A stretch of 64,000 nucleotides of DNA from Candidatus Undinarchaeota archaeon (GCA_964519305.1 CAZFHY010000009.1:32001-96000), one strand, 5' to 3'; shown: positions 306 to 52,707, counted from the first letter of the stretch. The notes: generated from the sequence alone by a model not told the origin. A program made the numbers and translations.

Positions 306-342
306 AAACGTGAAAAACCTTTCGTATTTTAAAAGCCTTTAC

Positions 343-9434: not shown

Positions 9435-9529
9435 AGTTCTACCTCCCCTGCATAATCAGTACGCCGTGTCCTTTTTATAGCTTGGGAAAGGTGTACGGGA
9501 TTGCCAAACCGATCATGGCATGCTCGGAT

Positions 9530-14063: not shown

Positions 14064-14240
14064 GATGATTCTCCTCGTTGGAAGGGGTGGACACGTCCAG
14101 TGTCTTTTAAAGGGTCCCTAGGGGGTGGCCCGTGGTCACCTAGAGCACGGCCGAGAAATATGCGAAAATAGAAGGATTCCGGGGCCTGGAGGCGAAAGAT
14201 TTAAGAACCGCCTGACATACTCTGTCACACTAGGGGCAAC

Positions 14241-19807: not shown

Positions 19808-20362
19808 TCAATCCCCTGACAGTGCATCGACTATCCCTGACGGTGAGCTCAATACACTGATGCCCATCATCGTATCCAGCTGCCGGGCGTTCGCTACGTC
19901 CACGGGGCGCATGGTGAGCGTTCCTGTCCGTCCCCCTGGCAGTGCCGTTATGACCTTACCTTCCTCGATGTCCGTGGGGAGCATGGTGATCGTTGCACCG
20001 CACTTGATGGCCTGTGCAACAAGATTGGGGACAAGGGTGTCCGCGATACCGCAGACGACCTTCGCCACGGTGTTCGCTGAGGCGGGAGCGACCAGAAAGG
20101 CCGCGTACACGCCCTTGTACAGATCACTGAGGAGCTTTGCCTGATTGGGCCCGTTCTCGATGACAGGTGCGGAGAACGCACCCTCGTCCAGACGATCCGT
20201 GAGCCCGTACATCCGAACCACCCGGGCGCCCTCGGCCGATAATACGGGCTGGACAATGGTCCCTTCGACGCTCACGTCCTCCATGGCCTCGAACGTAGCT
20301 TCGAGATGATGACCGGCGCCGGTGATCGCCCAGAGGATCCGTCGTGGATTGACAGGTGACAT
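19808..20362 (-). CDS. Archaeoflavoprotein (AfpA/DmrX-like flavoprotein family)
   Basis: WAITGAG, APASANTVAK..GIADTLV.N and PTD motifs. Confidence 0.85.
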   Translation of the reverse strand: MSPVNPRRILWAITGAGHHLEATFEAMEDVSVEGTIVQPVLSAEGARVVRMYGLTDRLDEGAFSAPVIENGPNQAKLLSDLYKGVYAAFLVAPASANTVAKVVCGIADTLVPNLVAQAIKCGATITMLPTDIEEGKVITALPGGRTGTLTMRPVDVANARQLDTMMGISVLSSPSGIVDALSGD

Positions 20363-20653
20363 TCAGATCATCCAGTCCTCGAGCACTTCGAGCACGAGGG
20401 CCTTCAGTTCACGAGGATCGTGCTCCCCTGGCTTCAATTCGTCCAAGGTTTCGGCCAGCGTGTGATCACCGATCACTTCCCGTACCCAGCTGGCCACGTC
20501 ATTGCAGTCGGGCCTGATGTGGAAAAGCAGCCCCTCTGGAGCCATTCCCAAGATGATCCAGTGCAGGTCCATGATGTCGCGGGCGACACCCTCTACACGA
20601 TCCTCGGACGACTTGACGATGAACTCGGATCCGTCGGGTGCGGAGGGCATCAT
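20363..20653 (-). CDS. Hypothetical protein
   Basis: ORF directly abuts the flavoprotein start and has normal codon usage. Confidence 0.6.
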   Translation of the reverse strand: MMPSAPDGSEFIVKSSEDRVEGVARDIMDLHWIILGMAPEGLLFHIRPDCNDVASWVREVIGDHTLAETLDELKPGEHDPRELKALVLEVLEDWMI

Positions 20654-20760
20654 CGGGGTTCCCTGCCACGTTTTCCGAGGTAAAGCTATTTATGTGGACT
20701 GGTCGGGCCGGGCCCTGTGTCTCCATAACCGTTATAATGCTCTGTGACGATAGGTAGTAT

Positions 20761-20907
20761 GTGGGCATCACCATCGACCCTGACGATCCACGATTCAAGA
20801 AGAAGCGTACACTTCGCCCCGAGGACGTAGAGGACATCGCCCTGGAGCGTCGCGAGGTCGACCTTCCTTCAACACAGCGTCCCCGTCGCAGGAAGGATGA
20901 GCGCTAG
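20761..20907 (+). CDS. Putative 48-aa charged small protein
   Basis: Manual translation MGITIDPDDPRFKKKRTLRPEDVEDIALERREVDLPSTQRPRRRKDER from GTG, with a TATA-like TTATAAT about 25 nt upstream. Confidence 0.5.
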   Translation: MGITIDPDDPRFKKKRTLRPEDVEDIALERREVDLPSTQRPRRRKDER

Positions 20908-20976
20908 CATCATCGCGCAGAGGGCGGGCGGGCGTCGCCGATTGATTTAAAACGCTCACCACTCATCCCGCTCCCG

Positions 20977-21462
20977 ATGGTCGCCGTACCACCCGCAGCA
21001 GGCCCCCTCATCGCCGCTGTAGGCTGCCTTGCCCTCGCTCCACGCGCTGCCAGGGGAGAGCGTGTCGAGGCAGGTGATGTGGCCTTCGGCGTGGTCGCGG
21101 GCCTGCTCCTGGCCGGCCTTACCGGGAATCTGACCACCGCTCTTGCGATGGCTATGTTCGGGGCATTGGCCTGGCCCGTGCTCCTTCTCCTGCTCGAGAT
21201 GGAGGACGCACGCATCATGCCTGCCCTTGGAGCGCTCCTGTTCGCCCCGATACCGGTTGACGGCCGTTCACTCCCGGCGTTCACTCTTGTAGCACCCTAT
21301 GCCCTGCTCGCCGCAATGACGCTGGACATGCTGGCCCAGCACGAGGTCTACGTCCCCGGCATCACCGTGGAGGTCGATGGCGGTCCCGACTTCCCGAACT
21401 TCGTCAACCTGCCTGCCGTGATCGCCATCGCGTGCCTGGCCTGCGCCCTTCTCGTCCGCTGA
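20977..21462 (+). CDS. Multi-pass membrane protein
   Basis: Several hydrophobic helices; TTTAAAA box upstream. Confidence 0.65.
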   Translation: MVAVPPAAGPLIAAVGCLALAPRAARGERVEAGDVAFGVVAGLLLAGLTGNLTTALAMAMFGALAWPVLLLLLEMEDARIMPALGALLFAPIPVDGRSLPAFTLVAPYALLAAMTLDMLAQHEVYVPGITVEVDGGPDFPNFVNLPAVIAIACLACALLVR

Positions 21463-21548
21463 TCCCTGCCCCGACCGGCTGCCTTCCCCAAGGATAGGTA
21501 GAAAAAGGCCCGCGATGCGCATCGCCTCTACTGGACGGGTGACCGAGC

Positions 21549-22355
21549 ATGCTCTATGAGAGGATTGTTGATACAGAAAGGCTCGAAGCGGACCTCTACG
21601 GCCTGTGCGCTGTGGAGTCCCTCACGACCGGCCGTGGCGAGTACATGGCCGACGGCTTCGAGGACATCGGGTTCTCCGTGGAGCGACAGCAGATGATCAA
21701 CTATCCCCACGAAAATAAGATGATGCAGGACCTGTGGAACGACGAGAACGTCATCGCTGAGTACAAGGGCGATCCGGGCTCGGACAGGTACCTGTTGGTG
21801 ATGGGCCACCACGACAAGGTCCCCGAGGGCAAAGGGGCCAACGACAATGGATCGGGATCGGTCATGCTCCTGGAGCTGGCACGTCAGCTGAGCGAGCGTG
21901 GCGAGAAGGTGAACGTGCGGTTCGCGTCCTACGGTCTGGAGGAGATTGGTCTCGACGGGGCCTCTGTGTACGTCAAATCTCTATCGGACACCGAGCGCGA
22001 CAACATCATCGCGGCAGTCAATCTGGACTGTATCGGTGCCGGCTCGGAGCTCACCCTCACCATGAAGGACCGTCGGAGCGCGACCACCGACTGGGTGAAC
22101 GACGCCATCAAGCAGAAGGCGGACAGCATGGGCATCTCCTACTACGAGCGTGCGTCAATGCGCGGTTCGAGCGACCATGCGGTGACCGCCAACGCCGGCA
22201 TCCCCACTGCATCGCTCTGCCGACAGGAGGACGGAAAGATCCCCAACCTCCACTCGAAGGACGACGTGGTCGAGAACATCGACCTCGGACTGCTGACCGA
22301 GACCGGTGACCTAGTCTACCACGCGATGGTCGACATCTATCGGGATAAGAGGTAG
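21549..22355 (+). CDS. M28 family metallopeptidase
   Basis: GHHD, GANDNGSG, EEIGLDG, NLDCIG, SDH and H..DD. Confidence 0.92.
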   Translation: MLYERIVDTERLEADLYGLCAVESLTTGRGEYMADGFEDIGFSVERQQMINYPHENKMMQDLWNDENVIAEYKGDPGSDRYLLVMGHHDKVPEGKGANDNGSGSVMLLELARQLSERGEKVNVRFASYGLEEIGLDGASVYVKSLSDTERDNIIAAVNLDCIGAGSELTLTMKDRRSATTDWVNDAIKQKADSMGISYYERASMRGSSDHAVTANAGIPTASLCRQEDGKIPNLHSKDDVVENIDLGLLTETGDLVYHAMVDIYRDKR

Positions 22356-22360
22356 ATCGA

Positions 22361-22681
22361 CTACTCGCCCTTTGCCTTCTTTACGAGCTCAGCGAGGTTA
22401 TCCTGCAGGCGCGCAGCCTCTGCCTCGGCCTTCGCCCTGACCTCTGCGGGAAGTTCTATCTGGGCCTCGAGGACGTCAGCGTACATCCGCGCGACCTTCG
22501 CCTTCTGCTCCCTTACGTCGACCTCGAGGACCACCTCGTGGTCACCGATGGACTTCTTGAGCAGGGTCGTTCCCTTGACCTTGGACGATACGGCCCAGCC
22601 GAGGTCCTTGAGCTTACCAAGGAGCGTGACCTCCTTAACCTCGCCTGAGACGAGTCCCCCCAACGAAAACGCGTACTTCAT
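22361..22681 (-). CDS. Hypothetical protein
   Basis: 106-aa ORF downstream of pnp with normal codon usage. Confidence 0.65.
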   Translation of the reverse strand: MKYAFSLGGLVSGEVKEVTLLGKLKDLGWAVSSKVKGTTLLKKSIGDHEVVLEVDVREQKAKVARMYADVLEAQIELPAEVRAKAEAEAARLQDNLAELVKKAKGE

Positions 22682-22739
22682 GTGATCACTTGGAGAGTAA
22701 GGAGCGGCTCAGACTTTTGTTCCTTTCGATTAGGGGACC

Positions 22740-22765
22740 CGCCCCGCGGGAATGCCCGCGGGGCG
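22740..22765 (-). terminator. Perfect 11-bp GC hairpin directly downstream of pnp
   Basis: CGCCCCGCGGG-AATG-CCCGCGGGGCG. Confidence 0.6.
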
Positions 22766-22778
22766 ATAGCTGTCTTCC

Positions 22779-25052
22779 CTAGTCTCTGCGGTCGCGGGAC
22801 CTGCGGTCGCGGTCCCTGCCGCCTCGGCGGTCACGGCCGCCACCACGGCGGTCGCGGTCACGGCCTCCACTGCGCCGGGGGCGTTCGGGCTCCACCCACC
22901 CGGGCGGCGGGGGGTGCAGGGCCTTCATGGAGACGTCGACCTTTCCGAAGGCTACCTTGGTCACGACGACCTTCACCGTGTCGCCGAGCTTGACCCGGTC
23001 CTCGATCTTGTCCACATGGCCGTACTCCAGCTCCGAGATGTGGAGCATCCCGTCCTTGCCGGGGATTAGGTTGACGAAGGCGCCGAAGGGCTTGATCGTG
23101 ACGACCTTGGCCTCCTCGAATATCTCGCCCACCTGCACCTCGCGAACGATGTCCCTGACGGCCTTCTCGGCCTTTGCGGCCATCTCGGCGTCGTTGGTGG
23201 TGATCATCACTGTACCGTCGTCCTCGATATCCATCTGGACGCCGGTCTCATCGGTGATGCTCCGGATCATCTTCCCGCCAGGGCCGATGACCGCGCCGAT
23301 CTTTTCCGGATCGATCTTTAAGGCAATGATACGCGGCGCGTACGCGGACAGCTCCTGCCTCGGCTCGGCGATCGCGCCCTGGATGACGTTAAGGATGAAG
23401 TTGTTCGCCATCCTTCCCTGGGTGATCGCTTCTCGGATGATGGGCATGGAGATACCACGGGTCTTTGTGTCCATCTGGACGGCTGTGACACCGTCACGGG
23501 TGGCGGTGATCTTGAAGTCCATACCGCCGTTCCCATCCTCCATGTCCTGGATGTCCGTGATGACCTTCCAGCGCTCACCGTCGGAAGCAAGCCCGATAGC
23601 TATCCCGGCCACGGGCTTCTTGATCGGGACACCCGCGTCCAGGAGGGCCAGCGTCGATGCGCATGTGGAGCCCATGGACGAGGAGCCGTTGGAGCTCATG
23701 ACCTCGGAGACCATCCTGATCGTGTAGGGGAACTCCTCCAGCGTGGGGAGCACCGGGCGAAGGGCTTTCTCCGCCAGCATGCCATGGCCCTGCTCTCGTC
23801 GACCGGCGCCGCGGAGCTTCTTTACCTCGCCCACGCTGAACGGTGGGAAGTTGTAGTGATGGAAGTACCGCTTCTTGATGTCGTCCTCCATCGACTCCAC
23901 GATGAGAGTGTCACCGGGGGCACCCAGGGTGACCACCGATAGAATGTGGGTCTCTCCTCGCTGGAAGAATCCCGTGCCATGGAGGCGAGGGAGCACGGCC
24001 ACGTCGGCCGCGAGGTGCCGGATATCGGTAATATTGCGGCCGTCGACGCGCTGTTCGCGGTCCAGGAGAGCCCGGGTGACCTGATCGTCGATGAACTCCT
24101 GGAAGCACTTCTTGAGGATGCCCTTGAGGTAGTCCTTGGCGGCCTCCTCGTCACGCTCCTGGTTGACGTACTCCCTGGCCATCTCGTTGACAACCAGTTC
24201 TTTCATCTCTCTCATGATCTCCTTGCGCTCGCCCTTTGAGCCGCGGGGCTGGTTGAAGACGTAGGTCTGGAGATGCGGGATCATGCGCTCCTTGAGCCGG
24301 TCAGCAACGACCTTCTCCTCGGGAGAGAGCTCGCCCGTGAACTTCAGGTCCTCCTTCTTCGCCTTGGGCTTACCGATCTGCTGGCGGACTTCCTCGATGA
24401 AGGCGCACAGCGGCCCGAGGGCACGCATGGCCTCTTCGAAGGCGCCGGCCATGACGTCGTCCGGGGCCTCGTTGCAGTCGCACTCCACCATGGTGATGCG
24501 GGAGCCGTCACCGGTGACCAGAAGGTCTACAATGGACTCCTCGAGCTCCTCCACGGTGGGGTTCACGATGTACCGACCGTCGATGTAACCGATGCGGACA
24601 CCGGCCACAGGTCCGTCGAATGGGATGCTGGAGAGGTGGAGGGCCATGCAGCCGCCGATGATGGCAGGGACGTCGGGCTTGTTCGCCTCGTCGAAGGTGA
24701 GGGGCATGCAGATGACTTGGACCTCGTTGCGCATGTTCTGGTCGAAGAGCGGGCGGATACCGCGGTCGATGGAGCGTCCGGTCAGCACAGCGTCGAGGGA
24801 AGGTCTGCCTTCCCGCTTGGTGAACCGGGAGCCTTTGATGCGCCCGCACGCGTAGTATCGCTCTTCGTATTCGACCATGAGAGGGAAGAAGTCCATCCCT
24901 TCGCGAGCGGAGGGGGACATGTTCGCTGAGCAGAGCACTACGGTCTCGCCTAGTTTTATGGTGAGTGCGGCATCGGATTGAGGTCCGTACCTACCTGTCT
25001 CGATCGTGAGCGTCTTTCCTGCTACATCGCAGGTGAATTGTCGAATGTTCAT
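22779..25052 (-). CDS. pnp: Polyribonucleotide nucleotidyltransferase (bacterial-type PNPase)
   Basis: DFFPL.V.Y.E, REGRPS, R.IDR.IRPLF, RVDGR, F.RGET, HHYNFPPFSVGE, RRE.GHG.LAE, SNGSSSM, D..GGMDFK, KH domain (IG.VIGPGGK), S1 domain and an R/D/G-rich tail. Confidence 0.97.
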   Translation of the reverse strand: MNIRQFTCDVAGKTLTIETGRYGPQSDAALTIKLGETVVLCSANMSPSAREGMDFFPLMVEYEERYYACGRIKGSRFTKREGRPSLDAVLTGRSIDRGIRPLFDQNMRNEVQVICMPLTFDEANKPDVPAIIGGCMALHLSSIPFDGPVAGVRIGYIDGRYIVNPTVEELEESIVDLLVTGDGSRITMVECDCNEAPDDVMAGAFEEAMRALGPLCAFIEEVRQQIGKPKAKKEDLKFTGELSPEEKVVADRLKERMIPHLQTYVFNQPRGSKGERKEIMREMKELVVNEMAREYVNQERDEEAAKDYLKGILKKCFQEFIDDQVTRALLDREQRVDGRNITDIRHLAADVAVLPRLHGTGFFQRGETHILSVVTLGAPGDTLIVESMEDDIKKRYFHHYNFPPFSVGEVKKLRGAGRREQGHGMLAEKALRPVLPTLEEFPYTIRMVSEVMSSNGSSSMGSTCASTLALLDAGVPIKKPVAGIAIGLASDGERWKVITDIQDMEDGNGGMDFKITATRDGVTAVQMDTKTRGISMPIIREAITQGRMANNFILNVIQGAIAEPRQELSAYAPRIIALKIDPEKIGAVIGPGGKMIRSITDETGVQMDIEDDGTVMITTNDAEMAAKAEKAVRDIVREVQVGEIFEEAKVVTIKPFGAFVNLIPGKDGMLHISELEYGHVDKIEDRVKLGDTVKVVVTKVAFGKVDVSMKALHPPPPGWVEPERPRRSGGRDRDRRGGGRDRRGGRDRDRRSRDRRD

Positions 25053-25174
25053 GTGGCATTCACTAAAGGGGTATCCTTTTAAATGAGCCGGTCAGGCCTC
25101 CGCAGTGGGCCGCGGTATCACGGTTCTTGCCATGGGAAAGGTATATATAGCGGTCGTGGGGCCGCGCCGACAAG

Positions 25175-25720
25175 GTGACGCTGATGGACATATCCATTGA
25201 CTATCTGGAGCGCGAGCAGATGAAGGTCGGACCGAGCGTCGGTATGGGTTTCGGGCCCACATATGGCATCCCACCATCAGGCCCCTTCCACACCAGCGAT
25301 GTCGTGTTCGACAACAACTACGTCGCAAGGCAGACCGAGGAGTTCGAGCCCGCCATCGAAGCGTTGGCCGAGCAGTACGCTGCCAAGGACGGTTGTGAGG
25401 TCATGGCCTACCACGACCACAGCCATACGACGTGGTACAATACCATCGATAAAGAGATGGAACACGTCCACTTCAAGGGCGAGATGGACGACTTCAAGGG
25501 CTTCATCGAGGACGCGAAGGCGGCCGGGTACGGCACGCCCGAGAACGTCCGGGTGAACGCCTCAGTGGTCGACTGGCTCACCCACCCGGTCCAGACCTGG
25601 CGCACGAAGCAGGCTGTATCCTCCTACATGGAGGAGGTCGGCTCCGAGCTCAAGGTCACAGAGACCGAAGAGGACGTAGGCAACCGACACATCTACAAGC
25701 GCGAGATTACGTTCGAATGA
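25175..25720 (+). CDS. Hypothetical acidic protein
   Basis: Own TATA box (TATATATA near 25142) and GGTGA RBS-like sequence. Start may be ATG 25184. Confidence 0.7.
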   Translation: MTLMDISIDYLEREQMKVGPSVGMGFGPTYGIPPSGPFHTSDVVFDNNYVARQTEEFEPAIEALAEQYAAKDGCEVMAYHDHSHTTWYNTIDKEMEHVHFKGEMDDFKGFIEDAKAAGYGTPENVRVNASVVDWLTHPVQTWRTKQAVSSYMEEVGSELKVTETEEDVGNRHIYKREITFE

Positions 25721-25734
25721 ACTGACCTCAATCC

Positions 25735-25774
25735 ACGGGGGCGGTCGTTACCGCGGCCGTCCCCGTTTCCTTTT
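25735..25774 (+). terminator. GC-rich hairpin followed by a pyrimidine tract between convergent genes
   Basis: ACGGGGGCGGTCG...CGGCCGTCCCCGT followed by TTCCTTTT. Confidence 0.55.
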
Positions 25775-25855
25775 ATCATGCACTGCGGGAAAAGGCTGTG
25801 TATGAATCTCACACTACCGGTGAGGTTGCTCGTTCCAGATAGGGTGGTCCGCTCG

Positions 25856-26263
25856 TTACCGGACAATACGTGAGTTCTCGGGAGCCATGACGAGCCAGTC
25901 CTCGTCGATGCCCGCCATATCGGACCCGCTGGTGGAGCAGTGCGTCTTGAGGCGGTTGATCGAGCGCTTGAGCTCGGACATGTCCTTCTCGCGCAGTTGC
26001 TTGATCTTGACGAGCATGATGGTGTTGCCCTTCCGGAAGTGCGTGAGGATGGTCTCTGTATCTGCGAAGTCCTCGAGCTGGGACGTACGGATCTGGAGAG
26101 CCGAGTCGCCCGAGTCCACGTTCTTGAACTTGATCTCGGGGATATCCGAGGTCTTTGAAGCATGAGCATTATGGATATGATGGTACTCGTCGAGGTGTGT
26201 GGGTCGTTTGTGCTTGAAGCGCTCCAACAGCTTCTCGCCCATTCTGTAGAACCGTTCGACCAT
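25856..26263 (-). CDS. sepF: Cell division protein SepF (archaeal type)
   Basis: R.GN.I.LV.I..L...D..ELKR.I..LK...G.D.AGI....L...P pattern. Confidence 0.88.
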   Translation of the reverse strand: MVERFYRMGEKLLERFKHKRPTHLDEYHHIHNAHASKTSDIPEIKFKNVDSGDSALQIRTSQLEDFADTETILTHFRKGNTIMLVKIKQLREKDMSELKRSINRLKTHCSTSGSDMAGIDEDWLVMAPENSRIVR

Positions 26264-26314
26264 AATCTATCCCAAGATGCTGGAGCGGTCTTCCTTTAAA
26301 TTCCTTCCGCCGAG

Positions 26315-26581
26315 CTATCTTTGGAGCGTCTCCAGAGTACTGGCGATGTTCCAGATATCGGTCCTTGTGTGCTCTGGCAGGTTCGGATCATTGGAGATAT
26401 CGTCCAACCGGTTGATTGCCTCGTTCACGCGAACGGCCATTGCTCTGTCCTTGCCTACAAGGATGCTCTTTACGTCCTCGGCAGTCTTGCGTATGTTCCG
26501 CGGCACCGATCGATCATCGAGTATCTCTTCGAGTATCTCGCAAACCTGAGAAAGGATGTTTTCAGCGTCCATGTCCCTCAT
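26315..26581 (-). CDS. UPF0147 family protein
   Basis: D.SVPRNIR, LDDISNDPNLP.H.RT.IW. Confidence 0.93.
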   Translation of the reverse strand: MRDMDAENILSQVCEILEEILDDRSVPRNIRKTAEDVKSILVGKDRAMAVRVNEAINRLDDISNDPNLPEHTRTDIWNIASTLETLQR

Positions 26582-27560
26582 CTCCTAGCCTTTCCCTCAG
26601 GACCCTCAGGAGGCCCTTGATACCCTCGTCCATTTCCACCACGCCATTGACGCTGGCAGCGGCATCGTGACCACCACCACTCCCTTGGATGATGGCCTCA
26701 ATGTTCGCGAGAAGGTCCTTGTAGACGTGAATCCCAGTGCTTTTTATAAAGGTTTTTCTCGCCCGCGCTGTTATCCGGAACCCCTTCTTCTTCTTGGCAC
26801 CGACGAAGGCTATGTCGGCACCGAACCTGATGAGAGCATTGGCCACATCGGCCTCGAAGGAGTTCACCCTCGAGACGGCCACTATCCACGGACCGGTCAA
26901 AGTGAGCTCGGCCCGTTGGGCTCCCTTGAGGATCGCGATCCTCGAGGAGCGATCAGGTTCCAGGTGGATGGCATCGAGCACCTCCTGGTAATCCACGTCG
27001 GTCGTGGCCAGGAGCTTGGCCATGTCTCGGAAGGTGCTGGCCTGTGCCCGTCTGAATGACATTGTGTCCGCGACCATGCCTGCGATCATCGCTGCGGCCG
27101 CACGCTTCGTGGGTTCTACGTCCGCTGCCTCGAAGAGGCGGAACACGAGCTCGCATGCAGACGGAGAGGTGGCGTCCGTCAGGGAAGCATGATAATCGCA
27201 TGGTCCCGAATAGGGATGATGGTCCACAACGACAGGCCGCTTCCATGGGACCAGGGGCGCGAACTGGTCGGGGTTCTGGACGTCCACGAGAACGGGAAGC
27301 CCTCCCGGGTTCGGAGGCCTGACCTCGAACTCGGCGTCCAGGTAGTCGATGAGCTTACGCGCGGCAACGCTCGCATGCGAACCCGATCCGATCCTCGACG
27401 GGATATCGAGCTTTTTCAACAGTTCCTGGAGCGCTATGCAGGCTCCTGCGGCATCGAGGTCGGCGTTCTGATGAGTGATGAGGAAAGCGCCCTCCCTCGC
27501 AGCGGTGAGGGCCTCAAGGACGTTTTGAACGTCCTCCCCGGTACCTTTTTTCTCAGGCAA
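26562..27560 (-). CDS. DHH/DHHA1 family phosphoesterase
   Basis: H.NAD.D, VD, DHH, DT..F and GGGH..AA motifs. Confidence 0.92.
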   Translation of the reverse strand: MPEKKGTGEDVQNVLEALTAAREGAFLITHQNADLDAAGACIALQELLKKLDIPSRIGSGSHASVAARKLIDYLDAEFEVRPPNPGGLPVLVDVQNPDQFAPLVPWKRPVVVDHHPYSGPCDYHASLTDATSPSACELVFRLFEAADVEPTKRAAAAMIAGMVADTMSFRRAQASTFRDMAKLLATTDVDYQEVLDAIHLEPDRSSRIAILKGAQRAELTLTGPWIVAVSRVNSFEADVANALIRFGADIAFVGAKKKKGFRITARARKTFIKSTGIHVYKDLLANIEAIIQGSGGGHDAAASVNGVVEMDEGIKGLLRVLRERLGDEGHGR

Positions 27561-27906
27561 TGGGGCCGGCCGGTCCCTGGAGGAGCTTGGTCACCTTGTC
27601 AGAGAGGTCGGTCACCTTCTCGTTGACCTTCTCCTCCTGACGGGTGAGAGTCTTGATTCGAAGCTCCAGGGTCTCACGCCGGTCGTCCAGTTCCTTTGTC
27701 ACGTCCTTGGCCTTCATCTTGGCAAGGATGGGGCCCACTGCCTTGTACACGTCCTCGTCCTTGACCCCTTCCAGGGATTCAAGGGCGGACATGACATCGG
27801 TCAGCTGGGTCTCGATCTGCTGTTTCTGGATGAGAATTGTCTGTGCCTGCTGCTGATACTGTTGCAGCTGGAGCACCATGTGCTGTGCTTGTGGGGATAT
27901 GTCCAT
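27553..27906 (-). CDS. pfdB: Prefoldin beta subunit
   Basis: Coiled coil with VYK.VG.IL hairpin; typical gene context. Confidence 0.93.
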   Translation of the reverse strand: MDISPQAQHMVLQLQQYQQQAQTILIQKQQIETQLTDVMSALESLEGVKDEDVYKAVGPILAKMKAKDVTKELDDRRETLELRIKTLTRQEEKVNEKVTDLSDKVTKLLQGPAGPIA

Positions 27907-27907
27907 G

Positions 27908-28123
27908 TCAACTCACCTCGTCAACGCTGAGGATTATCTTAAGCCACCTGCAGGTGGCGTTCATTGCGGCACGAAGTGCAGTCAGATCGTCGGCCTCGAT
28001 CAATATGTCGTCACCATCGAACCGAGTTCGTGCTCGCCGCTGCTCGTTAGTTCCTAGAGGCTGCGTCAGCACCGTGCGGACGAGCTCCGGTCGTTCCGTG
28101 GTCAGGCGGGCTGTGAAGGGGAT
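27908..28123 (-). CDS. pcc1: KEOPS complex subunit Pcc1; apparent non-canonical ATC start
   Basis: Not in the ORF track. Translation ...ILIEADDLTALRAAMNATCRWL... is the Pcc1 signature, and it lies between rpoP and pfdB as expected. Confidence 0.82.
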   Translation of the reverse strand: MPFTARLTTERPELVRTVLTQPLGTNEQRRARTRFDGDDILIEADDLTALRAAMNATCRWLKIILSVDEVS

Positions 28124-28135
28124 AACAGGAGCCCC

Positions 28136-28273
28136 CTACTGGCACAGCACCGACTTGATGACCCGAGGTCGAGCCTTGGCCAGGATCTTATAGCCGCAGA
28201 ACGGGCATCTGATCCGGCGCATCTCCGAGGTCGAAGGGTCGATCGTACGCTTGCACTTGAGACAGACGAACAC
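28136..28273 (-). CDS. rpoP: DNA-directed RNA polymerase subunit P (Rpo12)
   Basis: C..C...IRCP.CG.KIL.K.RP. GTG start 6 nt after GGAGGTG. Confidence 0.93.
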   Translation of the reverse strand: MFVCLKCKRTIDPSTSEMRRIRCPFCGYKILAKARPRVIKSVLCQ

Positions 28274-28278
28274 CCGGT

Positions 28279-28503
28279 TCACCTCCGCCTCGTGGATGGA
28301 GCGTAAGCGCCTCCAGCGATCTTGACGCCACACTTGGTACAGGACCAGAGTCCTGCGTTGGCGCGCTTCAGCTTCGGAGCCTTGCACTGGGGGCAGACAT
28401 GGAACGCGCGGGAACTGTTCTCTACCTTCGCCACCATCCTGCGGACCCTCTTACCGTAGCGGCAGCCGAAACGGCCGGCGCTTCCTACTTTCTTTGTTGC
28501 CAT
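28279..28503 (-). CDS. rpl37ae: 50S ribosomal protein L37Ae (eL43)
   Basis: KKVG.AGRFG.RYG, CP.C and W.C.KC...AGGAY.P. Confidence 0.96.
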   Translation of the reverse strand: MATKKVGSAGRFGCRYGKRVRRMVAKVENSSRAFHVCPQCKAPKLKRANAGLWSCTKCGVKIAGGAYAPSTRRR

Positions 28504-28530
28504 GATGATCGCCTGTTGTCGTGATGTGAA

Positions 28531-28608
28531 TGGTGGGGCCGCCGAGATTTGAACTCAGGTCACTACCACCCCAAGGTAGGAGGATAGACCAAGCTACCCT
28601 ACGGCCCC
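28531..28608 (-). tRNA. tRNA-Pro(GGG), CCA encoded
   Basis: GGGGCCG acceptor stem, anticodon arm CTACC-TTGGGGT-GGTAG, TTCAAAT T-loop, ends ACCA. Confidence 0.95.
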
Positions 28609-28642
28609 TTGATCACGTCTTGTGTGTACCCTCCACCTCCTA

Positions 28643-28840
28643 TTAGGCCCTCTTGTACCGCGCGATCTCGCTCACGAGATCGATCTGCGAGAGGAGCATG
28701 CGCCTACAGCAGTATCGCATGACGTTCAGGTCGTTGAGCACCGTTTCGGGGTGCTCACCCGCGGCTATGCGGCTCTGGTACGTATCGAAGTGCTCAGAGA
28801 CGGGTGCACCACAGGTAAAGCATCGTACGGGGATAATCAT
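28643..28840 (-). CDS. rpoN: DNA-directed RNA polymerase subunit N (Rpo10)
   Basis: MIIPVRCFTCG...RYCCRRM. Confidence 0.97.
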   Translation of the reverse strand: MIIPVRCFTCGAPVSEHFDTYQSRIAAGEHPETVLNDLNVMRYCCRRMLLSQIDLVSEIARYKRA

Positions 28841-28847
28841 TGTTCGC

Positions 28848-29258
28848 TCACCGGTATGACTTCTGTCGCCTCGACCGGGGCTTGGACCGGTTGGGCTTGG
28901 ACTTCTCGGTGCGCCGGGGATCGGCCACCAGGAGATGGCGGTCGTAGGTGAGGAAGAGGCGCTTGAGCTTCTCGTCCTCGGTGAACTCCACCAATCCCTT
29001 CGCGATGGCGAGCCGCACGGCCTCTGACTGTGCGATCCGGCCGCCGCCGCTGACGTTAACACGGATGTTGACGCTCTTTACGGCCTTTCCCGCCAGGAGC
29101 AGGGGCTCACGGATGCGTTCCCGGGCAAAGGCGGGCGTGAACAGTTCCAGGGGGACGCTGTTGATCTTGATGACGCCCTTTCCCTTGGAGAGGGTGGCCC
29201 TCGCCGTGGATCTCTTCCGCTTGCCGCTCGTATGGATGATCTTGCTCATGACTCCCAC
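28848..29258 (-). CDS. rps9: 30S ribosomal protein S9 (uS9)
   Basis: GKRK...A.A, GGG...Q..A.R.AIA, YDR.LLV.D.RR.E and QKSYR. Confidence 0.97.
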   Translation of the reverse strand: MGVMSKIIHTSGKRKRSTARATLSKGKGVIKINSVPLELFTPAFARERIREPLLLAGKAVKSVNIRVNVSGGGRIAQSEAVRLAIAKGLVEFTEDEKLKRLFLTYDRHLLVADPRRTEKSKPNRSKPRSRRQKSYR

Positions 29259-29677
29259 CTGTCACGTGATATACCGAGCTCCCGGGAGATGTCCCCCAGG
29301 CGCATGTACTTTCCGGTGTTTGAGGAGGCGATATTGATATCAGAGATGGTCTGGCTCTCAATGTCCTTGAGGGCCTGGGGCTTGCCGATGAACACCTTGA
29401 GGCGGTGGAAAGCATCGCGTCCGCGCTTGCGCTTGTAGGGCAGCATGCCGCGGACCGCCCTACGAAGGATGCGGTCAGGCATACGGGGGAAGTGGGGTCC
29501 GTGATAGGGATGACCCCTTGACCGGCGCTGGCGGTAGCGACTGAGTATGTGATCGCGGCTGCCTGTGATGATGGCCGACTCAGCGTTTATGATGCTGATC
29601 TTCTCGCCCTCCAGGAGCTTTTTTGCGACTTGGGCGGCCAACCGCCCCATGATGAGGTCCTTGGCATCGATGATCAT
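29246..29677 (-). CDS. rpl13: 50S ribosomal protein L13 (uL13)
   Basis: IIDA...GRLA..VAK, GP.FPR.PD.I.RR.VRGMLP. Confidence 0.97.
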   Translation of the reverse strand: MIIDAKDLIMGRLAAQVAKKLLEGEKISIINAESAIITGSRDHILSRYRQRRSRGHPYHGPHFPRMPDRILRRAVRGMLPYKRKRGRDAFHRLKVFIGKPQALKDIESQTISDINIASSNTGKYMRLGDISRELGISRDRWES

Positions 29678-30315: not shown

Positions 30316-30361
30316 CGCTCCTCCGCTGCCTTTTTAAATGATATACCGGCGAGTCATTTGT

Positions 30362-33712: not shown

Positions 33713-34540
33713 ATGGCGGATAGAGAACTGGAGAATAAAAAGACGGTGATCATCACCAAGCACATAACGAAAGAGTACCATCTGGGCAAGGTCATCGTCC
33801 ATGCCCTCCGTGACCTATCTCTCGAGGTGGAGGAAGGCTCGTTCGTTGCCATCATGGGGCCCTCTGGTTCGGGCAAGAGCACGCTCTTGCACATGATCTC
33901 GGCCCTGGACCGGCCGACGAGCGGTCAGGTCATCCTGGAGGACGAGGATATCACTGCTGCCTCGGACCGACGTCTCGCCCGCATCCGGAACAAGCAGGTG
34001 GGCTTCGTGTTCCAGTTCTTCAATCTCTTCCCCACGATGTCCGCCCAGGACAACGTGGAGTTCCCCATGATGATCGCGAACATGTCCGGGAGCAAGCGAA
34101 GGAAGCGCGCAAAAGAGCTCCTGGAGCTGGTCGGCCTCGGCGAACGACGCCACCATACACCGGGTGAGCTCTCAGGCGGACAGCGGCAACGCGTCGCCAT
34201 CGCCCGGGCGCTCGCTAACGATCCACCCGTGGTCTTCTGTGACGAACCGACAGGCAATCTGGACTCGACGGCCTCAAAAGAGATCATGGAGCTCCTGCAC
34301 CGGTTGTGCAAGGAGCAGGGAAAGACCATCGTCATTGTCACGCATGATCCTGCCGTGGGCGCGGTCACGGATCGAATGATCGAGCTGTGCGACGGACAGA
34401 TCAGCAAGGATCAAAAGAACGGCAAAGGTGAGAAACATGACAAGGAAGAGAAGCCTGCAAAGAAACGATCGAAGCGGAAGCGTTCCGCTGTCAAGAAACG
34501 TCCGAAGAAGGCAAAAGGAGGAGTGAAGAATGCAGAATGA
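33713..34540 (+). CDS. ABC transporter ATP-binding protein (LolD/MacB type)
   Basis: [29 protein letters not shown]; Lys-rich tail. Confidence 0.95.
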
Positions 34541-36224
34541 TAACACCATCTACAACCTCGGGCTCGTGCTCGTGCTAGCGCTCGTTATGCTCACGACACC
34601 TGCGACCGCGGCTTCGTCATCGGTCAAGATCCCCACGCTGGCCAACGTCCAGGTGTCCGTGCTGAATACCGATCCAGATACTGTTGAACCTGGTCGCGAT
34701 CTCCTGCTCACACTCAAAGTGGAGAACTACGGGAGCGAAGCGGCCGATAACGTTACTGTAACGTTCAAGCCACGATACCCCTTCGAGCTCAAACCCGGCG
34801 AGGATGCCATGACCGATGTGGGTCGTCTCGGCCCCCTTCGTGAGGCCTATGTCGAGTACGACCTTCTCGTACGCGAGGACGCTGTCGAGGGTGCGTACAC
34901 GTTCGTCATCGACTCGTGCATGGATAGCTGCGAGAAGGACCGGTCATCCACCGAGCTCGACATCCGGGTGAACGCCGCACCAAGCGTCTTGCTTACCGCC
35001 ACAAAGGTGCCCGAGCTCATCGGCTCCGACATGGAGGTACCGGTCAGGATCACTGTTGAGAACGTAGGGGCCGGGCAGGCCCGCAAGGTGCAGGTCGAGT
35101 TCAGCACGGTACCATCGGGCTCAACGGACGCGTCCCTGTTCACACTGGTGGACTCGGCACAGGTCGCGTTCCTCGGAGACATGGCACCCCGCTCGCTGCG
35201 TCACATCGACCTCATCTACCGTACCGGCGAGAAAGCCAGCGGCATCTACAAGCTTCCGGTCACGATCACCTACTCAGACGATGATGATGTGGAGAAGGAT
35301 TTCACCGTCACCATTGACGTGAACGCTCAGCCCGACATCACCATCGGCCAGATCTCGGTCGATCCGCCCCGCATCCTTCCCGGCTCTGTGGTCAGCGCTA
35401 CCATCCCCTTCACGAACACTGGCGACTGGAAGGCAGAGGACCTCAAGATCGTGCTTTCCACCATCCCCGTTGGCGCCACTGGCCAGACCACGCCCTTCGG
35501 GCTGGTGGACGGTACCGCCCAGCGCACCTATGACATCATCGCCGCGAACGGCTCCGACATGGCCACGTTCTCCCTGCTCGTGGACCCTGACGCCAGTGGT
35601 GTCTACACGCTCAAGGCCTATCTCACCTACAAGGGGCTCGCTGCGCCCATGGAGGGCGTCATCTCCGTCCCCGTGTTCGGCGAACCCAGGCTCGAGGCCG
35701 CCGTGCGCGGTGTGAGCCAGGAGAACGGGAACCTCCAGCTCTCGGTGGACGTCATGAACTCCGGCAGCGGCACGGCCAACGCCATCGTGGTGGAGCTTGC
35801 GCCCTCGGACGAGGACGTGAAGCTCGTATCATCACCACGCTCGCTCCTGGGATCGCTCGCGCCCAACGAGATCCAGACCGTGGACTTCACGCTAAAAGTG
35901 CCACAACCCGAGCCCGCGTTCACACGGCCCGGGGGACATGGCGAAGAACCCGAGGGAACACCGATGCCCACACCGGAGCCGGTGAAGCGCACCTTCTCCG
36001 CTGATGTGAGCCTCCACTACAAGAACGCCATGAACCAGGACCTTTCAGAGCCCACAGAGCTCTCATTCTCCGAGCCCCAGCGACAGTCATCTGGTATGGC
36101 CTCGGCCCATGGGGCGGGGGGCATGAGCAGGAACATCCAGTACGGGATGTATGCCTTGACGCTCATCGGTGCCCTGACCATCGTGCGCTGGCTCTTCGGC
36201 AAGCTGTTCGGAGGCGGGGACTAG
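34530..36224 (+). CDS. COG1361-type S-layer-domain protein
   Basis: Signal peptide, repeated N.G...A..V Ig-like domains and a C-terminal TM helix. Confidence 0.82.
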   Translation: MQNDNTIYNLGLVLVLALVMLTTPATAASSSVKIPTLANVQVSVLNTDPDTVEPGRDLLLTLKVENYGSEAADNVTVTFKPRYPFELKPGEDAMTDVGRLGPLREAYVEYDLLVREDAVEGAYTFVIDSCMDSCEKDRSSTELDIRVNAAPSVLLTATKVPELIGSDMEVPVRITVENVGAGQARKVQVEFSTVPSGSTDASLFTLVDSAQVAFLGDMAPRSLRHIDLIYRTGEKASGIYKLPVTITYSDDDDVEKDFTVTIDVNAQPDITIGQISVDPPRILPGSVVSATIPFTNTGDWKAEDLKIVLSTIPVGATGQTTPFGLVDGTAQRTYDIIAANGSDMATFSLLVDPDASGVYTLKAYLTYKGLAAPMEGVISVPVFGEPRLEAAVRGVSQENGNLQLSVDVMNSGSGTANAIVVELAPSDEDVKLVSSPRSLLGSLAPNEIQTVDFTLKVPQPEPAFTRPGGHGEEPEGTPMPTPEPVKRTFSADVSLHYKNAMNQDLSEPTELSFSEPQRQSSGMASAHGAGGMSRNIQYGMYALTLIGALTIVRWLFGKLFGGGD

Positions 36225-36228
36225 ACAT

Positions 36229-37464: not shown

Positions 37465-37470
37465 GGCGGC

Positions 37471-38358: not shown

Positions 38359-38441
38359 TTCACCCCAGTTCCGCAGTTCCGCACGATATACGCCTTCGTT
38401 CCGCAGAAATTATTTATTTCGTTCCAGATATAGATGTAGTC

Positions 38442-39071: not shown

Positions 39072-39076
39072 TTACC

Positions 39077-41269: not shown

Positions 41270-41279
41270 GGGTGCCGCC

Positions 41280-42536: not shown

Positions 42537-42538
42537 CC

Positions 42539-52655: not shown

Positions 52656-52707
52656 AAATTCACCCTCTATTTCGTCCTCGACACGACCTGCTTTTTTTAA
52701 ACCTATC

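What the first reader, a model, noticed from the sequence alone, without database searches (positions are those of the whole stretch)
22740..28608. Bacterial PNPase in an archaeon, beside the gene cluster that normally carries the exosome
Seen: a full PH1-alpha-PH2-KH-S1 PNPase flanked on both sides by archaeal genes, with similar GC, a TTTAAAA box about 30 nt upstream and a strong 3' hairpin. About 0.8 kb away is the rpl37ae-rpoP-pcc1-pfdB-DHH block, and directly upstream of rpl37ae lie tRNA-Pro and rpoN instead of rrp4-rrp41-rrp42. Established: archaea normally use the Rrp41/42 exosome, encoded just upstream of rpl37ae, and generally lack PNPase. Inference: non-orthologous replacement of the exosome by a horizontally acquired PNPase. 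The GRIKGSRF segment resembles, from memory, Patescibacteria (CPR) PNPases.
Basis: partly seen in the sequence, partly recalled or inferred. Interest (0 to 1): 0.85.

Follow-up and report, generated by a model that had tools for sequence, protein, structure and literature searches.

The report
Archaeal PNPase beside a dead exosome
An archaeon carries a working bacterial-type RNA-degrading enzyme (PNPase) while its own exosome genes, found elsewhere in the genome, have lost every catalytic residue yet are still kept, a pattern like the inert exosome core of yeast and human cells.

Summary
Window 22779-25052 (-) encodes a full-length PNPase with an intact active site. It has an archaeal TATA box and host-like codon usage, and it lies in the same place in a second species, so it is not a chimera.

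The exosome was not lost. rrp4-rrp41-rrp42 lie on another contig (G000:C12), joined to rpS2. That junction is shared by 11 of 14 phylum-mate loci, so it predates PNPase.

The new point is that this Rrp41 has lost all four catalytic residues (R99H, R139L, D182A, D188T; D182A is the engineered dead mutant) and the RNA-neck arginine. The genes are still under purifying selection (dN/dS 0.15-0.18).

All 36 PNPase-less archaea examined keep these residues. Of 11 PNPase-bearing genomes with an Rrp41, 5 have lost them. In one class of genomes whose named PNPase records read Thermoplasmata/Thermoplasmatota, 24 of 27 carry this PNPase and 16 of those 24 have no Rrp41 or Rrp4.

Best reading: PNPase took over phosphorolytic decay and tailing, and the exosome ring survives as a non-catalytic part. 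I found no paper describing this.

The parts
22779..25052 (-). pnp: a 757-aa polynucleotide phosphorylase with PH1, helical region, PH2, KH, S1 and an Arg/Asp/Gly-rich C-terminal tail
   Evidence: TIGR03591 scores 817 bits (cut-off 525). The NGSSSM and MED...GGMDFK motifs align to PDB PNPases.
25077..25083 (-). TTTAAAA TATA-like box, 24 nt before the pnp ATG; the spacing suggests a leaderless or near-leaderless mRNA
   Evidence: The same box and the same 24-nt spacing occur at 20946-20952 before the ATG at 20977. No sigma-70-like site was found.
22731..22781 (-). 3' stem-loop that starts at the stop codon; its core is a 12-bp G+C stem at 22739-22766
   Evidence: dG -34.7 kcal/mol, z -4.74, 0 of 200 shuffles fold as well. 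No T-run follows.
22361..22681 (-). 106-aa ORF downstream of pnp on the same strand; function unknown
   Evidence: no Pfam family at E <= 1e-4; one sub-threshold match. It is 92.5% identical in the sister species, with dN/dS 0.079.
25175..25720 (+). 181-aa ORF divergent from pnp; function unknown
   Evidence: no Pfam hit. dN/dS 0.096. It is not a pnp neighbour in the other 18 archaeal pnp loci compared.
25856..26263 (-). SepF-like gene
   Evidence: PF04472, 28.5 bits.
26315..26581 (-). UPF0147 gene
26562..27560 (-). DHH-family phosphoesterase
27553..27906 (-). prefoldin beta (pfdB)
27908..28072 (-). Pcc1 (KEOPS subunit), C-terminal match
   Evidence: PF09341, 24.7 bits (cut-off 20.9).
28136..28273 (-). 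zinc-ribbon ORF at the rpoP (Rpo12) position
   Evidence: PF03604 scores 16.7 bits, below its cut-off of 24. The name rests on position only.
28279..28503 (-). rpl37ae: the back half of the usual exosome superoperon starts here
   Evidence: PF01780, 97.4 bits.
28531..28608 (-). tRNA-Pro (GGG)
28643..28840 (-). rpoN, the end of the L18e-L13-S9-rpoN cluster, joined here to rpl37ae

Best explanation
The window encodes a functional PNPase of bacterial, Patescibacteria-like origin that is long settled in an archaeal chromosome. The genome does not lack the exosome. rrp4-rrp41-rrp42 lie on contig C12. The Rrp41 subunit, however, has lost both phosphate-binding arginines, both Mg2+-binding aspartates and the basic neck residue.

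PNPase is therefore the only protein in this genome with an intact RNase-PH-type phosphorolytic site. No RNase R, bacterial RNase PH or second Rrp41 was found.

I infer that PNPase now carries out phosphorolytic 3'-to-5' RNA decay and heteropolymeric 3' tailing. I also infer that the Rrp4/Rrp41/Rrp42 proteins persist under purifying selection as a non-catalytic part, by analogy with the inert Exo9 core of yeast and human.

Shown:
- identity of the gene, its intact active-site motifs and its native location;
- its place in the PNPase tree;
- loss of the Rrp41 residues and purifying selection on the exosome genes;
- the association of this loss with PNPase across genomes.

Inferred: enzymatic activity, the division of labour, and that the ring still assembles.
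For: 1. Identity and active site. TIGR03591 scores 817 bits against a cut-off of 525. The NGSSSM and D..D.K motifs align to solved PNPases. PMC3539426 names D486 and D492 of E. coli as the metal ligands (passages).

2. Native location.
- The region is collinear at about 90% nucleotide identity with an independently assembled sister species across window 22198-27888.
- Four Logan contigs of 17.5-19.3 kb cover 20000-29500 with 0 differences. They may come from the source samples.
- The gene has an archaeal TATA box.
- Its codon-usage distance is 0.050, within the 0.046-0.068 range of long window genes.

3. Exosome genes. Rpp30, Pop5, PsmA, SBDS, Rrp4 (174.5 bits, cut-off 200), Rrp41 (115.9, cut-off 318.7), Rrp42 (186.2, cut-off 280) and S2 lie in that order on C12.

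4. Dead Rrp41.
- The alignment to S. solfataricus Rrp41 (2br2_B) gives R99 to H88, S138/R139 to V126/L127, D182 to A175 and D188 to T181.
- The D182A mutant chain 2je6_B differs from the wild type at exactly that column.
- The roles of these residues come from PMC3539426 (passages).
- Neck residue R67 is N66 here. R67G lowers RNA affinity 1000-fold (PMC4824110 passages).
- Rrp42 does not supply the missing residues.

5. Controls. All 36 PNPase-less archaeal genomes examined keep R99, R139 and D188, and have D (34) or E (2) at position 182. Of 11 PNPase-bearing genomes with an Rrp41, 5 have lost them: G000, its sister species, G048, G049 and G050.

6. Selection, G000 against the sister species. 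dN/dS is 0.150 for Rrp41, 0.182 for Rrp42 and 0.176 for Rrp4. It is 0.092 for PNPase, 0.067 for SBDS and 0.077 for PsmA.

7. No other candidate enzyme. The Rrp41 model has only three matches in the genome: Rrp41, Rrp42 and PNPase. No RNB domain was found.

8. Clade-wide pattern. PNPase is in 24 of 27 genomes of the sampled class. Rrp41 and Rrp4 are both present in the same 10 and both absent in the other 17. Of those 17, 16 carry PNPase.
Against: - No biochemical, expression or RNA 3'-end data exist. No RNA run was listed for the stretch.
- Six PNPase-bearing genomes keep an intact Rrp41, so PNPase does not force inactivation.
- The genomes counted are related. The five dead Rrp41s may stand for as few as three events: the G000 genus, G048, and G049 with G050, whose PNPases are sisters.
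- dN/dS of the exosome genes is about twice that of neighbouring housekeeping genes, so selection is relaxed. Slow decay towards loss is not excluded.
- Alignment around R99 is less certain because of a 7-8-residue deletion there.
- Ring assembly was not tested.
- PNPase may have been acquired for another purpose, namely RNA catabolism as proposed for Patescibacteria. The exosome may have decayed for unrelated reasons.
Confidence: 0.7

Rival explanations
1. This is the first reader's reading: complete non-orthologous replacement. The archaeon lost the exosome genes and PNPase stands in for the whole complex.
For: No rrp genes lie upstream of rpl37ae in the window. In the sampled class, 16 of 24 PNPase-bearing genomes have neither Rrp41 nor Rrp4, so this end state does exist in other genomes that carry this PNPase.
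Against: G000 has full-length rrp4, rrp41 and rrp42 reading frames on C12. They are conserved in the sister species with dN/dS 0.15-0.18. The rrp42-rpS2 junction is shared by 11 of 14 PNPase-less phylum-mate loci, so the gap upstream of rpl37ae predates PNPase.
Confidence: 0.03
2. PNPase serves mainly as a catabolic or salvage enzyme. It would turn RNA plus phosphate into NDPs for nucleotide supply and energy, as proposed for its Patescibacteria donors. The decay of the exosome would be unrelated or secondary.
For: A 2026 preprint (10.64898/2026.06.21.733656; passages only) proposes that Patescibacteria use PNPase with Adk/Cmk to feed on host RNA. A form-III-type RuBisCO, which belongs to the nucleoside-degradation pathway according to PMC7414124 (passages), lies 8.7 kb from pnp. 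In 9 of the 18 other archaeal pnp loci compared, a RuBisCO gene lies within about two genes upstream of pnp.
Against: Those nine loci belong to one subclade, so they are close to a single observation. In G000 the two genes are not adjacent. This reading does not explain why dead or missing Rrp41 is seen only in PNPase-bearing genomes (0 of 36 against 5 of 11, plus 16 complete losses). The two readings are compatible: a salvage enzyme could later make Rrp41 dispensable.
Confidence: 0.15
3. Both systems are active and redundant. Rrp41 would still catalyse phosphorolysis with other residues, and PNPase would be an accessory enzyme.
For: Six PNPase-bearing genomes keep a canonical Rrp41, so the two can coexist. 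The exosome genes of G000 are under purifying selection.
Against: D182A alone abolishes activity (PMC3539426 passages), and G000 has exactly A at that position. R99, R139, D188 and neck R67 are lost too. Rrp42 offers no substitutes. The family score fell to 116 bits, against 288-322 in its phylum mates.
Confidence: 0.05
4. The feature is an artefact: a bacterial contig or bin contaminant, or a chimeric join, placed pnp among archaeal genes.
For: The genome is a metagenome assembly with 4.29% estimated contamination. PNPase is otherwise bacterial.
Against: The sister species has the same gene order across both pnp borders. Four single-run contigs span window 20000-29500. The gene has an archaeal promoter box with the same spacing as a native gene and host-like GC3 and codon usage. 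Closely related PNPases sit on archaeal contigs of up to 5.1 Mb.
Confidence: 0.01
5. The exosome genes of G000 are decaying relics on the way to loss and have no remaining function.
For: Their scores are far below the family cut-offs. Their dN/dS is about twice that of their neighbours. Complete loss is common among the other PNPase-bearing genomes surveyed.
Against: All three ORFs are intact in two species that have diverged by dS 0.4-0.6. A dN/dS of 0.15-0.18 is far from neutral. Three other genomes with a dead Rrp41 keep an Rrp4 that scores above its cut-off, at 210-223 bits.
Confidence: 0.06

Closest known systems
Bacterial polynucleotide phosphorylase (pnp; TIGR03591), especially that of Uhrbacteria/Parcubacteria (Patescibacteria)
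   Same: It has the same domain order and a full-length match above the equivalog cut-off. The phosphate-binding and metal-binding motifs are conserved. It shares the signatures IKGSRF and QDLEDGxGGMDFK, and an Arg/Gly-rich tail, with Uhrbacteria-type sequences.
   Different: The host is an archaeon. The gene has an archaeal TATA box and apparently no leader. It belongs to a separate archaeal clade on a long stem: 0.37-0.47 changes per column, support 100. The nearest bacterial sequences are 44-51% identical. It coexists with exosome genes.
Archaeal exosome (Rrp4/Rrp41/Rrp42) of Sulfolobus, Archaeoglobus and Methanothermobacter
   Same: The same three genes lie in the same order after Rpp30-Pop5-PsmA-SBDS. 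The best PDB matches of the Rrp41 homologue are archaeal Rrp41 chains.
   Different: Rrp41 lacks R99, R139, D182, D188 and R67, and has two loop deletions. Csl4 was not found. That holds for the whole phylum and was already reported for Undinarchaeota (PMC7414124 passages). rrp42 is followed by rpS2, not rpl37ae.
Yeast and human Exo9, the catalytically inert eukaryotic exosome core
   Same: A PH-domain ring protein is retained although the phosphorolytic residues are gone, and the activity is supplied by another enzyme. PMC5735172 (passages) states that yeast and animal Exo9 lost phosphorolysis and rely on Rrp44 and Rrp6.
   Different: The enzyme that stands in here is a phosphorolytic PNPase, not the hydrolytic Rrp44 (no RNB domain). 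Nothing shows that it binds the ring. The neck arginine is also lost, so threading of RNA through the ring is doubtful. An RNase D-like protein, the family to which Rrp6 is related by my recollection, is present, but no link to the ring was tested.
Exosome-less archaea that use RNase R (Halobacteria, Methanomicrobiales)
   Same: A bacterial-type 3'-to-5' exoribonuclease stands in for exosome activity (PMC7144898 passages).
   Different: Those lineages lost the exosome genes and use a hydrolytic RNase R. Here the enzyme is PNPase, the structural relative of the exosome, and the exosome genes remain.

Membership tests
Polynucleotide phosphorylase (TIGR03591 / NF008805) | Full-length match above the curated equivalog cut-off | tested here: met
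   TIGR03591 scores 817.1 bits (cut-off 525.05) over profile 2-688 of 689. NF008805 scores 813.2 bits (cut-off 471).
Polynucleotide phosphorylase (TIGR03591 / NF008805) | Two RNase PH domains followed by KH and S1 domains | tested here: met
   Pfam finds RNase_PH in 2 stretches, RNase_PH_C, KH_1 at 578-633 and S1 at 639-700.
Polynucleotide phosphorylase (TIGR03591 / NF008805) | PH2 active site: the phosphate-binding serine motif and two metal-binding aspartates (E. coli D486 and D492) | tested here: met
   NGSSSM and DMEDGNGGMDFK align to the same motifs in PDB PNPases and across 55 sequences. The residue roles come from PMC3539426.
Polynucleotide phosphorylase (TIGR03591 / NF008805) | Homotrimer with phosphate-dependent 3'-to-5' RNase and NDP-polymerase activity | not testable with these tools
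   This needs recombinant protein.
Archaeal exosome catalytic subunit Rrp41 (TIGR02065) | Match above the curated equivalog cut-off | tested here: not met
   It scores 115.9 bits against a cut-off of 318.7. Its phylum mates score 288-322 bits.
Archaeal exosome catalytic subunit Rrp41 (TIGR02065) | Gene lies between rrp4 and rrp42 in the superoperon | tested here: met
   Positions in L004 are Rrp4 9211-9894, Rrp41 8508-9230 and Rrp42 7738-8511, all on the minus strand.
Archaeal exosome catalytic subunit Rrp41 (TIGR02065) | Phosphate-binding residues R99 and S138/R139 | tested here: not met
   The aligned residues are H88 and V126/L127.
Archaeal exosome catalytic subunit Rrp41 (TIGR02065) | Mg2+-binding residues D182 and D188 | tested here: not met
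   The aligned residues are A175 and T181. D182A is the engineered dead mutant.
Archaeal exosome catalytic subunit Rrp41 (TIGR02065) | Basic neck residue R67 at the RNA entry pore | tested here: not met
   It is N66 in a loop that is 3 residues shorter and acidic. All 14 phylum mates have R or K.
Archaeal exosome catalytic subunit Rrp41 (TIGR02065) | Forms a hexameric ring with Rrp42, capped by Rrp4 | not tested
   This is only inferred from co-retention of the genes and dN/dS 0.15-0.18. No complex prediction was run.
Exosome superoperon (Rpp30...Rrp42-L37ae-RpoP...PfdB) | rrp42 directly followed by rpl37ae | tested here: not met
   G000 has rrp42-rpS2 on C12 and rpoN-tRNA-Pro-rpl37ae in the window. 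The rrp42-rpS2 junction is in 11 of 14 phylum-mate loci. The canonical junction is in 9 of 11 loci of the sampled PNPase-bearing class and G042.

The most novel reading that the evidence does not exclude
After archaea acquired a Patescibacteria-type PNPase, the exosome repeatedly followed the path once taken in eukaryotes. The catalytic Rrp41 subunit died while the ring and its cap were kept for a non-catalytic job, such as RNA binding, substrate delivery or ribosome-biogenesis scaffolding. In some lineages the whole complex was then lost. If so, G000 and three genomes of the sampled class (G048, G049, G050) are natural prokaryotic counterparts of the inert Exo9 core. In the boldest version, the dead ring works together with PNPase or with the RNase D-like protein.
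Probability: 0.3. Interest if true: 0.9.

Novelty: new variant of a known kind. Interest (0 to 1): 0.8.

Why it matters
Reviews place PNPase in bacteria and organelles and the exosome in archaea and eukaryotes. A 2020 paper lists only the exosome, RNase R or nothing as the archaeal 3'-to-5' activity (PMC7144898 passages).

This work shows a whole clade of archaeal PNPases. It is in 24 of 27 genomes of one class and in this genus, and the 120 best database relatives that were listed are 54-95% identical. With it comes a graded series:
- exosome intact;
- Rrp41 catalytically dead but the genes kept;
- exosome gone.

That series is a natural experiment on two open questions. The first is how a non-orthologous enzyme displaces a conserved machine. 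The second is why an inert PH ring is worth keeping, a question so far asked only of the eukaryotic Exo9 core.

There is also a practical point for annotation. The G000 protein is named 'exosome complex component RRP41' by one source, although it cannot be the exonuclease.

Tried and rejected
- Csl4 loss as a sign of decay in G000 was rejected. NF034126 gave no hit over its cut-off in any of the 17 phylum genomes, and the hits it gave are Rrp4 cross-matches. The Pfam model PF10447 was insensitive even in the control genomes. The lack of Csl4 is already published for Undinarchaeota.
- A conserved pnp operon partner was not found. The neighbours shared within one subclade are thioredoxin, RuBisCO and an ABC/FtsX transporter. 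None is shared with G000.
- Expression could not be assessed. No RNA holder was listed for window 21500-26500.
- Taxonomy from Rrp41 failed. Outside its own genus the best relatives are only 36% identical and come from many phyla.
- An aEF-2 search was used instead. Of 19 organism-named hits, 16 were Woesearchaeota or Nanoarchaeota and none was Thermoplasmatota. This is a single gene and best hits only, not a species tree.
- No complex or structure prediction was run. A pass for a textbook pair would have added little.
- Five literature searches for an archaeal PNPase and one for Rrp41 in metagenome-assembled archaea found no description. A seventh found only the Patescibacteria preprint. Its PNPase tree is in a supplement that I could not see and may already include archaeal sequences.

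Full report
**1. What is in the window**

The ORF at 22779-25052 (-) encodes a 757-aa protein.
- Pfam finds two RNase PH domains, RNase_PH_C, KH and S1.
- NCBIfam's PNPase equivalog TIGR03591 scores 817 bits against a cut-off of 525, over nearly the whole profile.
- Against solved structures the best match is a bacterial PNPase (5yjj_A, 623 bits). The phosphate-binding NGSSSM and the metal-binding D..D.K block (DMEDGNGGMDFK) are conserved.
- PMC3539426 (passages read) names the two aspartates of E. coli PNPase, D486 and D492, as the metal ligands equivalent to Rrp41 D182 and D188.
- The C-terminus is an Arg/Asp/Gly-rich tail. Similar tails occur in the other archaeal PNPases and in close Patescibacteria sequences.

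The flanks are archaeal.
- On one side lie SepF-like, UPF0147, DHH, prefoldin beta, Pcc1, a zinc ribbon at the rpoP position, L37ae, tRNA-Pro(GGG), rpoN, S9, L13 and L18e.
- Further out lie PAN, HPS-PHI, a form-III-type RuBisCO, TFB, S8e and SecDF.

- TTTAAAA lies 24 nt before the ATG.
- The heptamer occurs 8 times in the window against 0.56 expected. One copy has the same 24-nt spacing before the ATG at 20977.
- A 12-bp G+C stem follows the stop codon, with dG -34.7 kcal/mol and z -4.74.
- No sigma-70-like promoter was found.

**2. It is not a chimera or a contaminant**

- The window is collinear with an independently assembled species of the same genus (G001 = G043) across both pnp borders. 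Window 22198-27888 matches at about 90% nucleotide identity, and the alignment continues on both sides.
- Four single-run Logan contigs of 17.5-19.3 kb each cover window 20000-29500 in one piece with no differences. These runs may be the source samples, so they give an independent assembly, not independent DNA.
- GC, GC3 and codon usage of pnp fall within the range of the window's genes. The transfer is therefore not recent.

**3. The exosome is not missing**

A search of the whole genome (3.63 Mb, 99.83% complete) with the Rrp41 model gave three matches: PNPase itself and two adjacent genes on contig C12.

That locus reads Rpp30, Pop5, PsmA, SBDS, Rrp4, Rrp41, Rrp42, then rpS2 and MEMO. This is the front half of the exosome superoperon.

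The junction rrp42-rpS2 is also present in 11 of 14 loci from PNPase-less members of the same phylum. By contrast, rrp42-rpl37ae is present in 9 of 11 loci from the PNPase-bearing class described in section 7 and from G042.

The rearrangement that left rpoN-tRNA-Pro next to rpl37ae is therefore old and phylum-wide. It does not mark a site where the exosome was deleted.

**4. The Rrp41 is catalytically dead**

Its family score is 116 bits against a cut-off of 319. The other 15 genomes of the phylum score 288-322 bits where the gene is whole.

HMMER alignments to S. solfataricus Rrp41 (2br2_B) let the residues be counted directly:

| S. solfataricus | G000 |
|---|---|
| R99 | H88 |
| S138/R139 | V126/L127 |
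| D182 | A175 |
| D188 | T181 |

- A 7-8-residue deletion lies just before the R99 loop.
- The chain 2je6_B differs from 2br2_B at exactly the D182 column. It is the D182A mutant, so G000 carries the same substitution as the engineered inactive enzyme.
- PMC3539426 (passages) states that R99, R139 and S138 bind phosphate, that D182 and D188 bind the metal, and that D182A abolishes activity.
- The neck arginine R67 is N66 in G000, in a loop that is 3 residues shorter and acidic. R67G lowers RNA affinity 1000-fold (PMC4824110 passages).
- Rrp42 does not carry substitute residues.
- Outside its own genus the closest relatives of this Rrp41 are only 36% identical.

**5. The dead genes are still under selection**

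Between G000 and its sister species, dN/dS values are as follows:

| Gene | dN/dS |
|---|---|
| Rrp41 | 0.150 |
| Rrp42 | 0.182 |
| Rrp4 | 0.176 |
| PNPase | 0.092 |
| SBDS | 0.067 |
| PsmA | 0.077 |

Selection on the exosome genes is relaxed about twofold but is clearly purifying.

**6. Controls for the residue loss**

I aligned Rrp41 from 47 genomes.

The 36 PNPase-less genomes comprise 14 phylum mates, 2 from the sampled class and 20 from 20 other archaeal families.
- All keep R99, R139 and D188.
- Position 182 is D in 34 and E in 2.
- Absence of PNPase in the phylum mates and the 20 families rests.

Of the 11 PNPase-bearing genomes that have an Rrp41:
- six are intact (G042, G044, G046, G056, G057, G065);
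- five are not (G000, its sister species, G048, G049, G050).

Rows left out: G014 (gene split), G020 and G035 (no locus returned), and G032 and G039 (no match at E <= 1e-30).

These genomes are related, so the five cases may be as few as three events.

**7. The wider clade**

The closest database relatives of this PNPase are 54-69% identical. Of the 14 that carry an organism name, 13 are Thermoplasmata, Thermoplasmatota or Proteinoplasmatales MAGs, some on contigs of 3.6-5.2 Mb. One is labelled [Eubacterium] cellulosolvens.

I took the genome that holds one of these hits (G041; its record title reads 'Thermoplasmata archaeon') and searched its class. The tool gives no taxon names for the other genomes of that class. 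I call it Thermoplasmatota from the names carried by identical PNPase records.
- 24 of 27 genomes of at least 80% completeness carry PNPase.
- Rrp41 and Rrp4 are found in the same 10 genomes and in no others.
- Among the 24 PNPase-bearing genomes, 5 have an intact Rrp41, 3 have a dead Rrp41 with Rrp4 still above its cut-off, and 16 have no exosome genes.
- Two of the three PNPase-less genomes have an intact exosome. The third (G068) showed neither.
- Nine genomes also have a PH protein of about 245 aa. The one I checked (G067) is bacterial-type RNase PH, with TIGR01966 at 313 bits.

G000 represents an intermediate state.

**8. Origin of the PNPase**

- An exhaustive HMMER search of 1.84 billion cluster representatives found no non-self representative above 51% identity. 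The three organism-named proteins among the top ten are Uhrbacteria or Patescibacteria.
- A pattern-seeded scan of GTDB species genomes gave, after two Thermoplasmata and the sister species, mostly Patescibacteria at 40-51%.
- FastTree on 99 sequences puts all 38 archaeal PNPases in one clade, with support 100 and a stem of 0.37.
- IQ-TREE (LG+C20+F+G4 PMSF, quick search, 55 sequences) puts all 21 archaeal rows in one clade with SH-aLRT 100. It joins them to an Uhrbacteria/Parcubacteria group with support 99.
- Two shared signatures, IKGSRF and QDLEDGxGGMDFK, back this up. Other bacteria have IPGGFF and GxEDHxGDMDFK.
- The trees are unrooted and the bacterial sample is biased towards near relatives. 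Even so, the archaeal clade is nested several layers deep inside bacterial sequences.

**9. Who the host is**

- The held taxonomy puts G000 in a phylum of 17 genomes. The other 15 are 0.6-1.2 Mb.
- The sister species' record is titled Candidatus Undinarchaeales archaeon.
- The shared rrp42-rpS2 junction, the lack of Csl4 across the phylum (reported for Undinarchaeota in PMC7414124, passages) and DPANN-like best hits for aEF-2 agree with that placement.
- Only this genus in the phylum has PNPase (2 of 17).
- Its PNPase, together with one unnamed 69%-identical relative, is a basal branch of the archaeal clade.
- The gene therefore moved between archaeal phyla, or was acquired more than once from the same source. 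I cannot say which, or in which direction.

**10. Mechanism proposed**

PNPase is the only protein with an intact PH-type phosphorolytic site in this genome. No RNase R and no bacterial RNase PH are present.

I infer that PNPase performs phosphorolytic 3'-to-5' decay and NDP-dependent tailing. In other archaea these belong to Rrp41 (PMC7144898 passages).

The Rrp4/Rrp41/Rrp42 genes persist for a non-catalytic role that I cannot specify. With the neck arginine gone, canonical threading of RNA is doubtful. The S1/KH cap protein Rrp4 may be the functional part.

The G+C hairpin at the 3' end of pnp would be a natural barrier to 3' exonucleases. That is conjecture.

**11. Rival worth keeping**

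A 2026 preprint (passages only) argues that Patescibacteria use PNPase to catabolise host RNA. The nearby form-III RuBisCO, and the closeness of RuBisCO to pnp in one subclade of the other archaeal loci, fit a salvage role. The two readings are compatible.

**12. Novelty**

Seven full-text searches found no description of an archaeal PNPase or of a catalytically dead archaeal Rrp41.

The library lacks most subscription journals, and supplements were closed. The PNPase tree of the 2026 preprint is in a supplement that I could not see.

Noticed in passing
whole genome G000 (window = G000:C9:32001-96000): G000 is 3.63 Mb at about 60% GC, and its sister species is 3.8 Mb. The held taxonomy places them in a phylum whose other 15 genomes are 0.6-1.2 Mb. 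The published Undinarchaeales MAGs whose table rows I saw are 0.37-0.62 Mb at 40-42% GC (PMC7414124). A large-genome member of a DPANN-type phylum would be of interest in its own right.
   Followed up: partly
G000:C1:100733-101806 (L178:868-2028, -): A 386-aa RNase D-like protein has a DEDD exonuclease domain and two HRDC stretches. TIGR01388 scores 195 bits, below its cut-off of 299. It is found only in G000 and its sister species among the 17 phylum genomes. It is a second bacterial-type 3' exonuclease in this genus and, by my recollection, belongs to the family related to eukaryotic Rrp6.
   Followed up: partly
L133:1498-2226 (-) in G067; similar hits in G044, G049-G052, G063, G066 and G069: Bacterial-type RNase PH (TIGR01966, 313 bits, cut-off 141.5) occurs in the PNPase-bearing archaeal class. 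Only the G067 copy was checked. The other eight hits are similar in size and score.
   Followed up: partly
window 2553-9434 (-): A 2293-aa ORF has no Pfam family at E <= 1e-6.
   Followed up: no
window 12462-14063 (-); L159:3897-5234 and eight other loci: A 533-aa form-III-type RuBisCO with an N-terminal extension lies 8.7 kb from pnp. In 9 of the 18 other archaeal pnp loci compared, a RuBisCO gene lies within about two genes upstream of pnp, and in 10 an ABC ATPase follows pnp downstream, mostly with an FtsX/MacB permease after it. The G000 window also has ABC/MacB genes at 33713-43354. This may be an echo of old synteny or a link to nucleotide salvage.
   Followed up: partly
P0052; L011 and L012: These look like taxonomic mislabels in public records. 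A PNPase labelled [Eubacterium] cellulosolvens sits inside the archaeal clade next to G041. Several MAGs labelled 'uncultured Gammaproteobacteria' carry PNPases that group with Uhrbacteria/Parcubacteria.
   Followed up: partly
window 21462-22198: The M28 peptidase gene (21549-22355, +) just downstream of pnp has no counterpart at this site in the sister species. About 740 bp in G000 correspond to about 60 bp there. Another M28 peptidase lies next to the RNase D-like gene on C1.
   Followed up: no
window 327-334, 1798-1804, 14105-14111, 20946-20952, 30332-30338, 52695-52701: TTTAAAA is about 14-fold over-represented in the window (8 copies against 0.56 expected). At 20946-20952 it lies 24 nt before an ORF start, the same spacing as at pnp. 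It is probably the organism's preferred TATA box.
   Followed up: partly
G068 (the class of G041): One 3.0-Mb genome of the PNPase-bearing class showed neither PNPase, Rrp41 nor Rrp4. It had only a 182-aa PH-like fragment. The cause may be an incomplete assembly or a lineage without any known phosphorolytic 3' exonuclease.
   Followed up: no
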